A DNA stretch of 64,000 bases from Chrysomallon squamiferum (taxonomy: Eukaryota > Animalia > Mollusca), in the NCBI GenBank assembly GCA_012295275.1, contig CM022674.1, positions 7,192,001 through 7,256,000 on the forward strand. Direction: 5' to 3'. The position numbers and the translations under genes are program-made. The notes under the pieces are model-generated. The model made no database searches. It was not told where the DNA came from and saw only the letters and a program-made list of their open reading frames with translations. Positions within the stretch are counted from its first letter, which is position 1. Each line of letters opens with the position of its first letter. Shown here piece by piece: positions 58,801 to 64,000 of this stretch.

Positions 58801-61800
58801 AACTAAGTACATGTATATCAATGTTTGCAGAATGTCCTGTTCAGCTTCACACTGTATGAAGCTGATGTAATTACAGAATGGAATATTCACAGAAAAGAAA
58901 TAAAGACAACAAATGATGAAGATAACAAAGCAGTGATGTTTACCTCCATAGCATTTATCAGCATTCTTGTCAGACGGAAAGGGATTTTTTCTGGAAACTT
59001 CTCCCTCACCATGGCAACCTCAAAGCAGTCACCGAAATCAATGTGAATGATTTTGCCACTCATTCTGTCCAACATCAGATTCGATGGATGTCTGAAACAA
59101 ATTCATCAGATAAAGAAATCTTAATTTCGTTTCTTAATGTAATTAATGGGAGACAAAAATACCCCCAAAACAACAGACAATGCCAGATCTAAAAATCTAC
59201 TTTTCAAACTATAACCATTATAATTTTACTATATATATAAATTATTGCTATTCATGCTTTATAAATTATAAAAATATATATGTATGCTGGTTTTTTTTGT
59301 TTAAATTATATTAAACACAGAAATATTCCAACATCTTATAATAACTTATATAACAAAACAAAGGTTTCGAATAGTTAAATTTGTTGAAATAAAAATCTAA
59401 ATAACAATATATCTAAAATACCTGTCTCCAAGTCCCAGAACGTATCCCACCATTGACATGACAGCCAGTGAACGAGTATAGTTAGTTCTACGATCAAACC
59501 ACACCTGAAACAGATAAGTATATTAAACCACTATAATACAGGAAAACAAACCAACAACAACAGTAAAAAAAATCTATCTGAAACAGTGATGTGGAAACAG
59601 ACAGAACATCAGGTGTATGTAGTAGATCAGCTTGTGGTGTTTACTTGCTTAAGTAGTCAATTTTTAAATATATTTTCAGAATATTTGTTAAAACAAATCT
59701 TCCAACATAAGATAAAAATTCAAAACATTTGATTAAACAGTGACTTTTGAGATTCTCTGAGGCTTAGAGGTAAGAAAAAAGCACAACAAATGTTGTGAAG
59801 GGTGCAAGCAGGGAGAAAATGACAATGAAAAAAACACAGTTAAAACTGACCTCTGAACTCGGACTCTTGTACCAGAGAATCTTTGCAAGGTCATCCCCCT
59901 GTGTGTGTTCCAGTGCGTGTTCAAACACCTCAACTTTCTGCATCAGAGTCAGGTGATCATAGTCTGGTGCCATCTGTAAATAAATAAATAAATACAGAAA
60001 TAAACATTGATAGATAAGTAAACAGGTAAGAAGATAATAACCCAACAACAAAAATATAAACAAATATATGATAAATGAAGACAAAAGCAAACAAATAATT
60101 AAAAAATAATAAACATATACATAATTGTATAAATAAATAAATACATAAACAAATAGATAAATAAATAAATAATCAAGCAAAAAAAAGTGAAAGAATAAAT
60201 ATATCAACTAGTAAATTAATAATTAACAAAATTACATGTAATTAAAATAAAATAAAATAAAATAAATAAATGATGAAAGGGAGAAAGAAATAAAGAATTC
60301 AGTTATAATGGGAAGTAAAATTACTGAACTAAAATTTAAAATAAATAAAATTAATATTAAAAAAAAATAATTAAAAATTTAAAATAAAATATATAAATTT
60401 AAAAAAAAAAAAAATTAAATTTAAAAAAAATATATATTTACCCTCAGCATGAGCCTGTGTTCTATGTTGAGTAGAATTTTCTTTTTCTCTCTGTAGTCTC
60501 TGATGAGGGAGTGGAGGGTGTCGCAGTGCGGCACCCAGCCGATCAGTCCTGAGTTTGTCGACAACGGAATTGCTGAAAATCGCGTGATGCTGAAACAAAG
60601 AATAAATGTTGATAACAGTTGTTATTCTAGTACATAGAACAGCAACAACAGAAACTGTAGACACTCATTTTACTTTCACAATGAGTATACTCAGCTGTGA
60701 TATTGCAATATATATGATATTTTCTGTTAACAATTCTATATAACATCTACCACAGTTTAGGTAAAAAAGAGAGCTGTGTTGAACTTACATGAGGTTTCGT
60801 CTGAATGTGTCTGGGTTGTTTCTCAGTAAAGAGTTGACTAAACCAAACAGCTGCATCACTCGCTCATCCTGTCTCAAATCTTCATGTCCCTTCAGCAGAA
60901 ACTGATACTCCTTGCCATCAGATCCTGTGTAAACAAACAAATAAATAAATATAAAAAAAATACAAAAATAAAACAACCAATAAAATGTGTGTGTGTTTAT
61001 ATAGACAGCTTGACAGACTGACAGATATATTAACAAAAAGTAATATATTATGCAAATTACACACACACACACGTATGTATGTATTATATAAATAATGAAA
61101 AAAATAAATAAATCAGTATAAATAAATAAATTAAAATAAAACCAATCAATCAATCGATCAATCAATCATCAACAAATACAAAATTAAAATGTTTATGCAC
61201 ATTACTTTCAAACAGAATAAAATTACACCAAGAGATATTTGGACAAAAATTAATTTAGCACTTCTATTAATAACAATAACTAATGGAATAACAAATGTTT
61301 AGAATGATTCACCGAATATTGTGAGTTTGCGTGGCCGCTGTTTTGATGTGATCACTTGAAGGGAGCTGGCTACGTGGCTGATTCGCACGACGGGGTGGTT
61401 TGGCTCATATGAACCGGGCACAGCAAGCTCCAGGTCTTTACACTTCAACAGCTTGGGTGACACATACTGCAGCTCCAGAGACGTCAGCTGAAGTCAAAAT
61501 CATAATAAATAAATAAATAGAAAAATAGTAACAACGCAAAATGTCAGAATGCTCTAAACATGCTTGAAAATAGATATTCTATAAAACATTTAATACAGAT
61601 CATAGACAGACAGACAGATGTAATTGATGTAGCTGTTTAGATATTCTACAAAAAACACGTACAGATAGACAGAGAGATATATCTGCGTTAATTATTTAGA
61701 TATTCTATGAAACATGAGATAGTAGAGATAAACAGACAGACAGACATATCTGTGATAGTTGTTTAGATATTCTGCGGAACACGTGTTAGTACAGATAAAC

Positions 61801-64000
61801 AGACAGACAGACAGACAGACATACCTGTGGTAGTTGTTTAGATATTCTGCAGAACATGTGATAGTAGAGATAAACAGACAGACAGACAGAGAGACAGACA
61901 AACCTGTGGTAGTTGTTTAGGTATTCTGCGGAACACATGATAGTAGAGATAAACAGACAGACAGACAGACATACCTGTGGTAGCTGTTTAGATATTCTGC
62001 GGAACACATGATAGTACAGATAAACAGACAGACAGACAAACCTGTGATAGTTGTTTAGATATTCTGCAGAACACATGATAGTAGAGATAAACAGATGGAC
62101 AGAAAGACAGACAGACATACCTGTGGTAGTTGTTTAGATATTCTGCGGAACACATGATAGTAGAGATAAACAGACAGACAGACAAACCTGTGATAGTTGT
62201 TTAGATATTCTGCAGAACACATGATAGTATAGATAAACAGACAGACAGACAGAGAGACAGACATATCTGTGGTAGTTGTTTAGATATTCTGCGGAACACG
62301 TGATATAACAGATAAACACAAGCAGACAGACAGACAGACAGACAGACAGACAGACATACCTGTGGCAGTTGTTTAGATATATTCAGACAGGAACACATGA
62401 GTTGTTTAGTAGAGTAGAGATAAACAGACAGACAGACAAACCTGTGATAGTTGTTTAGATATTCTGCAGAACACATGATAGTATAGATAAACAGACAGAC
62501 AGACAGACAGAGAGACAGACATATCTGTGGTAGTTGTTTAGATATTCTGCGGAACACGTGATAGTAAAAATAAACAGACAGACAGACATACCTGTGGTAG
62601 TTGTTTAGATATTCTGCGGAACACGTGATAGTAGAGATAAACAGACAGACAGACATACCTGTGGTAGTTGTTTAGATATTCTGCGGAACACATGATAGTA
62701 GAGATAAACAGACAGACAGACAGACATACCTGTGGTAGTTGTTTAGATATTCTGCGGAACACATGATAGTAGAGATAAACAGACAGACAGACATACCTGT
62801 GGTAGTTGTTTAGATATTCTGCGGAACACGTGATAGTAGAGATAAACAGACAGACAGACAGACAGACAGACAAACCTGTGGTAGTTGTTTAGATATTCTG
62901 CGGAACACGTGATATAACAGATAAACAGACAGACAGACAGACAGACAGACAGACAGACAGACATACCTGTGGTAGTTGTTTAGATATTCTGCGGAACACA
63001 TGATAGTAGAGATAAACAGACAGACAGACATACCTGTGGTAGTTGTTTAGATATTCTGCGGAACACGTGATAGTAGAGATAAACAGACAGACAGACAGAC
63101 AGACAGACCTGTGGTAGTTGTTTAGATATTCTGCGGAACACATGATAGTAGAGATAAACAGACAGACAGACAGACAGACAGACAGACCTGTGGTAGTTGT
63201 TTAGATATTCTGCGGAACACATGATAGTAGAGATAAACAGAAAGACAGACAGACATACCTGTGGTAGTTGTTTAGATATTCTGCGGAACACGTGATATAA
63301 CAGATAAACAGACAGACAGACAGACAGACAGACATACCTGTGGTAGTTGTTTAGATATTCTGCGGAACACATGATAGTAGAGATAAACAGACAGACAGAC
63401 AGACATACCTGTGGTAGTTGTTTAGATATTCTGCGGAACACATGATAGTAGAGATAAACAGACAGACAGACATACCTGTGGTAGTTGTTTAGATATTCTG
63501 CGGAACACGTGATAGTAGAGATAAACAGACAGACAGACAGACATATCTGTGGTAGTTGTTTAGATATTCTGCAGAACACGTGATAGTAGAGATAAACAGA
63601 CAGACAGACAGACAGACAGACAGACAGACATACCTGTGGTAGTTGTTTAGATATTCTAAACAGACAGACAGGAACACATGATAGTAGAGATAAACAGACA
63701 GACAGACAGACATACCTGTGGTAGTTGTTTAGATATTCTGCGGAACACGTGATAGTAGAGATAAACAGACAGACAGACAGACATATCTGTGGTAGTTGTT
63801 TAGATATTCTGCAGAACACGTGATAGTAGAGATAAACAGACAGACAGACAGACAGACAGACAGACATACCTGTGGTAGTTGTTTAGATATTCTGCGGAAC
63901 ACGTGATAGTAGAGATAAACAGACAGACAGACAGACAGACAGACATACCTGTGGTAGTTGTTTAGATATTCTGCGGAACACGTGATAGTAGAGATCCCAG
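55825..64000 (-). CDS. MTOR: Serine/threonine-protein kinase mTOR, C-terminal part (FRB end, PIKK kinase domain, FATC); 5' part outside the window
   Basis: Minus-strand exons: 64000-63949 ([17 protein letters not shown]), 61487-61313 ([11 protein letters not shown]...[11 protein letters not shown]), 60924-60789 ([23 protein letters not shown]), 60589-60442 ([13 protein letters not shown]), 59973-59851, 59504-59422 (LGLGDR), 59091-58944 (HPSNLML...HIDFGDCFE), 58771-58636, 58150-58088, 57430-57362, 57007-56933, 56201-56096 ([14 protein letters not shown]) and 55840-55825 (CPFW, TGA). All are GT-AG and in phase. Confidence 0.98.
56238..56741 (-). repeat. Intronic minisatellite (21/25 bp unit, about 21 copies) just upstream of the MTOR FATC-exon acceptor
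   Basis: Plus-strand unit TATTAATACATTTATATCAGT(CAGT/TAGT). Confidence 0.95.
57424..57901 (-). repeat. 32-bp minisatellite (15 copies) made of an MTOR 3' splice site plus the first 7 nt of the exon
   Basis: The sense-strand unit ACTAATTAAAATACTTATTTTACAG|GAGATTT repeats every 32 nt (57424, 57456 ... 57872). The last copy in transcript order is the true acceptor of exon 57430-57362. Confidence 0.95.
61600..63995 (-). repeat. Minisatellite (about 67-91 bp unit, about 30 copies) made of the MTOR FRB exon end, its 5' splice site and (TCTG)n
   Basis: Sense-strand unit GTATGT(CTGT)nTTATCTCTACTATCACGTGTTCCGCAGAATATCTAAACAACTACCACAG, which translates to [15 protein letters not shown], the same as the real exon end at 63995-63949. 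Confidence 0.97.

What the first reader, a model, noticed from the sequence alone, without database searches (positions are those of the whole stretch)
61600..63995. About 30 tandem copies of the mTOR FRB exon end plus its splice donor inside the following intron
Seen: the 2.4-kb repeat is not anonymous DNA. Each unit holds the last about 47 nt of the upstream exon ([15 protein letters not shown], the end of the rapamycin-binding FRB domain), the CAG|GTATGT donor and a variable (TCTG)n tract. Each intact unit therefore starts with GT and ends with CAG, like back-to-back mini-introns of 67-91 nt with zero-length exons. Read-through of the first 79-nt unit reaches TAA (...RVPQNI*), so simple use of a downstream donor truncates mTOR before the kinase domain. 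Established: duplication across an AG|GT site is a proposed intron-gain route, and AG|GT ratchet points underlie recursive splicing. Inference: the array could be removed recursively, act as a U1 snRNP decoy sink, or tune mTOR output through NMD. A one-repeat (4-nt) contraction of the first (TCTG)n tract would give a 75-nt in-frame unit and a duplicated FRB-end peptide.
Basis: partly seen in the sequence, partly recalled or inferred. Interest (0 to 1): 0.88.

Follow-up and report, generated by a model that had tools for sequence, protein, structure and literature searches.

The report
Splice-donor minisatellite in invertebrate TOR intron
An intron of an invertebrate's TOR growth-kinase gene holds 30 tandem copies of the preceding exon's end plus its splice signal; the mRNA likely still uses the first, genuine signal, so this is most likely a harmless further case of a repeat type already described in human and lancelet genes.

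Summary
The array is in the sequence: 30 units of 67-93 nt fill a 2,461-nt TOR intron. Each unit is the donor, a (TCTG)n tract and a copy of the exon's last 47 nt. 24 of 30 spare donors keep GT, and use of any of them brings in a stop at 63885. This is a known repeat type (human F7, CBS, 6-16; lancelet 'mirage' repeats), and this scan has 46 similar notes in at least 19 other genomes. Spliced contigs from 4 of 4 runs join exon-end sequence to the acceptor at 61487; three continue 312-587 nt upstream, which by graph reasoning means the genuine donor dominates (inferred; the distinguishing letters were not seen). Recursive 'zero-length exon' removal is unlikely: 0 of 24 AG|GT sites has a pyrimidine tract, and 29 of 30 units have an earlier AG. 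The intron position is old, so this is not intron gain. Two contig ends fall exactly at these two array borders, a weak hint of unspliced or mis-spliced RNA. Most likely neutral; low interest.

The parts
63949..64000 (-). 3' end of the genuine TOR exon (end of the FRB region); runs off the window edge; donor at 63949/63948
   Evidence: Translation continues in frame into the next exon in a 442-aa stop-free model; upstream letters encode W-D and differ from the array units
61683..63948 (-). 30 tandem units of 67-93 nt: donor + (TCTG)3-9 + copy of the exon's last 47 nt; 24 of 30 spare donors keep GT
61570..61682 (-). Two decayed copies at the far edge of the array, without a GT donor
63883..63885 (-). 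In-frame TAA in the first unit; carried by every transcript that uses a downstream donor
61488..61569 (-). Non-repeat tail of the intron with an ordinary T-rich acceptor
   Evidence: acceptor used in 4 of 4 RNA-type contigs
61313..61487 (-). Next TOR exon (human mTOR 2118-2174 equivalent)
57430..57909 (-). Second splice-site array in the same gene: 15 tandem acceptors at 32-nt spacing, the last being the genuine one; all 14 upstream ones give a stop
55826..60924 (-). Eleven further TOR exons (kinase domain to the C-terminal end)
   Evidence: Exon model without stops; two junctions seen directly in contigs

Best explanation
The array is a minisatellite made of the exon's last 47 nt plus the start of the intron, likely amplified by slippage and unequal exchange, and the spliceosome likely ignores the copies and uses the first donor, so normal TOR is made. 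Shown: the anatomy, the stop in unit 1, divergence rising away from the exon, and spliced contigs reaching the 61487 acceptor. Inferred: a first duplication across the border next to an unstable (TCTG)n tract, then minisatellite turnover; selection of the exon-nearest site, either by 5'-to-3' scanning as reported for F7 or by pairing across the exon. The second array favours pairing across the exon, because there the genuine acceptor is the last of 15. Rare use of a spare donor would give a stop-containing transcript that would be removed by NMD, so the array is tolerated rather than functional.
For: Same layout as F7, 6-16, CBS, LAMIN B2 and PDGF, where the first or first few donors are used, and lancelet mirage repeats, which occur at both exon borders and do not disturb splicing. 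4 of 4 runs (3 samples, 2 studies) have one spliced contig with no intron cover in the laid stretch; 3 of 4 run on 312, 367 and 587 nt upstream of the acceptor, whereas an unbranched path through the array ends 10 nt beyond the shared 47 nt. Neutral-looking decay: divergence rises with distance from the exon (rho 0.61, 27 of 30 units, 3 indel/decayed units dropped), 20 of 42 substitutions are CpG transitions at 4 of 47 positions, identical units recur (3=6, 7=13=16, 8=17). Copies are not kept in frame (4 of 30) and the spare donors decay (13 of 30 changed). The window is rich in tandem arrays (173 rows).
Against: The letters that separate exon from array were not seen in any RNA record; only 30 shared letters were shown, so first-donor use is inferred. 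Contigs drop rare forms and cannot measure leak. The X6 contig stops exactly 47 nt upstream of the acceptor and the X9 contig 27 nt into the exon after the second array; both are intron-derived branch points, 2 of 8 array junctions against 0 of 37 others (p 0.028, after the fact), so intron-containing RNA or DNA was in those libraries. 17 spare donors are identical to the genuine one. Units are not independent, so the gradient and CpG statistics overstate certainty. Direct and recursive splicing give the same final mRNA, so contigs cannot separate them.
Confidence: 0.8

Rival explanations
1. Leaky use with a real effect: the second or third donor, or a 22-nt microexon between each unit's inner AG and the next donor, is used often enough to send part of TOR mRNA to NMD, so array length or the first (TCTG)n length tunes TOR dose; alleles with an in-frame first unit would add 25 residues after the FRB region.
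For: Proximal pseudo-donors are used in human 6-16 and CBS. Two contig ends sit at the two array borders. 29 of 30 units have an AG 22 nt before their end, with a more pyrimidine-rich tract than the unit end. Every such product has a stop far upstream of many junctions.
Against: 3 of 4 contigs pass the junction unbroken. Array words are multi-copy (6 and 17 copies for the two flanking words) and form loops that assemblers clip less readily (inference), so a trace of pre-mRNA or DNA explains the contig ends. The inner AG is itself weak: median score -2.4, at the bottom of the real acceptors' range, and only 1 of 31 meets the minimal tract motif.
Confidence: 0.12
2. Recursive removal: each unit is spliced as a mini-intron with a zero-length exon, regenerating a donor at each AG|GT.
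For: [quoted passage not shown]
Against: 0 of 24 meets the minimal motif Y5+N0-4YAGGT used in PMC10156609; tract scores -7.8 to -4.3 against -2.2 to 4.0 for 12 real acceptors; an earlier AG in 29 of 30 units would be met first (first-AG rule recalled); 6 of 30 junctions have lost GT and would break a ratchet; the intron is only 2,461 nt.
Confidence: 0.03
3. U1 decoy or protective binding platform: the 17 identical donors bind U1 snRNP and change splicing or guard the transcript from premature cleavage.
For: 17 of 30 spare donors match the consensus at 8 of 9 positions.
Against: No test here; donors decay along the array; one modestly expressed pre-mRNA is small against the cellular U1 pool (recalled knowledge); no sign of conservation could be examined.
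Confidence: 0.02
4. The array is much shorter in real chromosomes and the assembly inflated it.
For: Copy number rests on this assembly; word shares of DNA runs (0.59-0.72) fit with or without the array (expected 0.55 or 0.73 for the non-array part).
Against: Units differ in 13 distinct substitutions and in (TCTG)n length, with a divergence gradient and decayed edge copies; 1,149 distinct 31-mers; the X6 contig end implies at least one array-type junction in a separate study (inferred).
Confidence: 0.03

Closest known systems
Human F7 intron 7 37-bp VNTR, and the 6-16 (IFI6), CBS intron 13, LAMIN B2 and PDGF cases it cites (Borensztajn et al. 2006, PMC1557585; seen: abstract, synopsis, introduction, passages of results and discussion)
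   Same: Minisatellite whose first unit spans the exon/intron border, so the donor is repeated in the intron; 5-25 spare donors; first donor used alone or with the nearest two.
   Different: Invertebrate TOR gene; 30 units; a long exon share (47 nt against 4 nt in F7); a nested variable (TCTG)n tract; no minigene evidence here.
Lancelet 'mirage' minisatellites in Adh3 and globin genes (PMC3087553; seen: passages of abstract, one results section and figure legends; the original Adh3 paper was not seen)
   Same: Tandem copies of exon/intron borders at either end of exons, many but not all with intact AG/GT, regular splicing undisturbed, edge units excluded from homogenisation.
   Different: More copies than the globin cases (3-6); a donor array and an acceptor array in one gene; length instability not tested here.
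Recursive splice sites / ratchet points (PMC10156609; seen: start of abstract and passages)
   Same: AG|GT juxtaposition inside an intron.
   Different: No pyrimidine tract, competing upstream AG, short intron, sites 67-93 nt apart.
Intron gain by tandem genomic duplication (PMC3443670, passages; PMC4974935, search listing only)
   Same: Duplication that includes an AGGT.
   Different: The known route duplicates an exonic AGGT and creates a new intron; here the duplication spans an old donor and only lengthens an existing intron.

Membership tests
Splice-site-spanning ('mirage', F7-type) minisatellite | Tandem repeat whose first unit spans an exon/intron border | tested here: met
Splice-site-spanning ('mirage', F7-type) minisatellite | Splice site reiterated in the intron, many but not all copies intact | tested here: met
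   24 of 30 keep GT, 17 identical
Splice-site-spanning ('mirage', F7-type) minisatellite | Genuine site dominates in mRNA | tested here: inconclusive
   Supported by inference from 3 of 4 unbroken contigs; distinguishing letters not seen
Splice-site-spanning ('mirage', F7-type) minisatellite | Turnover pattern: homogenised core, divergent edge units | tested here: met
   gradient and repeated identical units
Splice-site-spanning ('mirage', F7-type) minisatellite | Length polymorphism between alleles or individuals | not tested
   No reads or contigs were laid over the array; only short-read contigs were listed
Recursive splice sites | YAG|GT juxtaposition | tested here: met
   24 sites
Recursive splice sites | Pyrimidine tract before the AG (Y5+N0-4YAGGT) | tested here: not met
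   0 of 24; tract scores below all 12 real acceptors
Recursive splice sites | Lariat or intermediate junction reads | not testable with these tools
   Only contigs were available
Intron gain by tandem duplication | Intron at a new position made from duplicated exon sequence | tested here: not met
   46 of 120 listed homologs break at the same Q|L position; the intron has an 82-nt non-repeat tail with its own acceptor

The most novel reading that the evidence does not exclude
TOR dose in this animal is set by two splice-site minisatellites acting as a length-variable leak: array length and the 4-nt steps of the first (TCTG)n tract switch mis-spliced transcripts between NMD targets and an in-frame isoform with 25 extra residues that repeat the FRB end. 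The gene would also be a natural two-sided test of exon definition, with 30 spare donors and 14 spare acceptors.
Probability: 0.07. Interest if true: 0.65.

Novelty: new member of a known kind. Interest (0 to 1): 0.18.

Why it matters
As a neutral repeat it matters little: one more, fairly large example of a described class, showing that even an essential kinase tolerates 30 spare donors. Its modest value is as a test case. One gene carries a donor array and an acceptor array, and in both the exon-nearest site is the only one that keeps the reading frame, which lets exon-definition and scanning models be compared in an invertebrate. It would matter more only if array genotype changed TOR level or isoforms.

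Tried and rejected
No whole genome is held for this window, so the genome-wide frequency of such arrays and the upstream exons could not be examined. Word shares of DNA runs do not say whether the array is in them, since the non-array part alone gives 0.55 or 0.73 depending on how words are counted. The donor side and the array have no reads or contigs laid on them, which leaves direct donor use and length polymorphism open. The protein search (one 58-aa exon, proteins of 103-2000 aa, best 120 of 240 listed) gave no near-identical named protein, so the lineage is only approximate. Paper searches with 'VNTR, each repeat unit, splice donor, cryptic' and 'mTOR gene, intron, VNTR, splice site' found 0 papers; the scan's notes held nothing for this genome or for a TOR array. 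PMC10078293 (passages) did not add a matching case. A microexon route through the inner AG was considered and kept only as part of a rival, because that acceptor scores weakly. No supplements were read; those of the lancelet paper hold unit alignments that might refine the comparison.

Full report
Observation. The minus strand of 60800-64000 shows the end of a TOR exon at the window edge, followed by a tandem array. Splitting at each exon-end CAG gives 30 full units of 67-93 nt from 63948 to 61683 and two decayed copies down to about 61570. Tandem Repeats Finder reports 29.8 copies. Each unit is the donor, 3-9 TCTG repeats, three T and a copy of the exon's last 47 nt. That 47-mer, with up to 9 mismatches, occurs 29 times, all inside this region. 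Of 30 spare donors, 17 are identical to the genuine one, 7 keep GT with a change at +3, and 6 have lost GT.

The gene. A 13-exon model from 64000 to 55826 gives 442 residues without a stop and ends in the TOR C-terminal motif (a first attempt with five borders off by one base had stops). The exon after the array matches human mTOR 2118-2174 (E 3.5e-24). Among the 120 listed homologs, the closest named are Mytilus coruscus (92.6% over 297 aa) and Solemya velum (91.6% over 333 aa), against about 85% for vertebrates, so the animal is likely a mollusc or another lophotrochozoan. The array fills all but 82 nt of a 2,461-nt intron; the other 11 introns of the model are 172-731 nt. 46 of 120 homologs break off after a Q at exactly this position, as ORFs read from genomic DNA would at an intron; 63 are continuous, 8 differ otherwise, 3 lack the motif. 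The intron position is therefore shared widely and was not created by the array.

What the copies could do. Any downstream donor carries the TAA at 63885. As acceptors the unit ends are poor: 3-6 T in 20 nt against 8-16 in 12 of 12 real acceptors, and composition scores of -7.8 to -4.3 against -2.2 to 4.0 (a simple model trained on this gene, leave-one-out). None of the 24 YAG|GT sites meets the minimal recursive-site motif of PMC10156609 (passages; test). In 29 of 30 units an AG lies 22 nt before the unit end; by the first-AG rule (recalled) a mini-intron would end there and leave a 22-nt microexon with a stop in its third codon, not a zero-length exon. Against that route, this inner AG is also weak (median -2.4; 1 of 31 meets the motif).

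History of the array. Divergence from the exon rises with distance (Spearman 0.61, p 0.0007, 27 of 30 units; units 4, 21 and 30 dropped for indels or decay), 20 of 42 substitutions are transitions at the two CpGs, and identical units recur. The units share ancestry, so these numbers are descriptive. The pattern is that of ordinary minisatellite turnover, with fresh copies next to the exon and old ones at the far edge, and it argues against an assembly artefact.

RNA evidence. Eleven runs were listed, all as short-read contigs, nine holding part of 58600-64000. Four were laid on 60445-61660: X6 and X9 (on record as RNA) and X7 and X8 (no library record, but spliced like RNA); 3 samples, 2 studies. 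In 4 of 4, one contig covers the three exons, skips the introns and continues from 61487 into exon-end letters. Only 30 of those letters are shown, and they are shared by exon and array. X9, X7 and X8 run on 312, 367 and 587 nt upstream of the acceptor. In a 31-mer graph of the array the unbranched path through a unit ends 10 nt beyond the shared 47 nt, and a transcript using a spare donor would form a loop, so these long contigs imply that the genuine donor dominates. This is an inference; it cannot measure rare forms or exclude recursion. Against a perfectly clean picture, X6 stops exactly 47 nt upstream of the acceptor, where exon and unit diverge, and by length X9 stops 27 nt into the exon at 57430; both are predicted branch points for intron-derived words. 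That is 2 of 8 array junctions against 0 of 37 others (p 0.028, after the fact; junctions outside the laid stretch judged from contig length only). Multi-copy words and loops make traces of pre-mRNA or DNA visible at arrays, so this is a weak hint only. The donor side itself has no reads laid on it.

A second array. The same gene has 15 acceptors at 32-nt spacing before the exon at 57430; the genuine one is the last, and all 14 upstream ones give a stop. Of 24 junction-spanning 14-mers in the model, only these two are repeated (17 and 15 times). In both arrays the exon-nearest site is the only one that keeps the frame, which pairing across the exon explains in one rule; 5'-to-3' scanning explains only the donor array (inference).

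Comparison. [quoted passage not shown] PMC3087553 (passages) describes lancelet 'mirage' repeats at both exon borders that do not disturb splicing; the lead to it came from earlier scan notes, which list 46 findings with these words in at least 19 genomes. Those notes are unchecked and are not counted as support. Intron gain by duplication needs an exonic AGGT and a new position (PMC3443670, passages), which is not the case. No paper on a TOR case turned up in two searches.

Verdict. A real, well-formed member of a known repeat class, most likely neutral (0.8). A leak with an effect on TOR dose is possible (0.12); recursion, a U1 sink and assembly inflation are unlikely. Interest 0.18.

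Noticed in passing
window 57430-57909 (-): Acceptor minisatellite in the same TOR gene: 32-nt unit, 15 acceptors, each unit with a branch-point-like TACTAAT (recalled consensus); all 14 upstream acceptors give a stop.
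   Followed up: partly
window 56239-56741: A third minisatellite (25-nt unit, about 20 copies) fills another TOR intron up to about 38 nt from the acceptor; it does not copy the junction.
   Followed up: partly
window 14190-27760: About 12 tandem copies of a 1.03-kb unit at 93-96% identity, itself built from two related halves with a 58-nt subrepeat and (AC)n, followed by an inverted partial copy at 26747-27759.
   Followed up: partly
window 40784-47678 (+): SLC12-family cation-chloride transporter gene (Pfam SLC12 and AA_permease), converging on TOR.
   Followed up: no
window 8855-9238 (+) and 1844-1984 (-): Exons of a Bin3-family methyltransferase and of a CW-type zinc-finger protein.
   Followed up: no
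window 27766-29050: Two clusters of a 42-nt repeat about 1 kb apart.
   Followed up: no
window 61347, 61377, 61407: Three single-base differences in the exon after the array among the four laid contigs; X7 and X8, from one sample, differ at 61347, so the sample is heterozygous or pooled.
   Followed up: no
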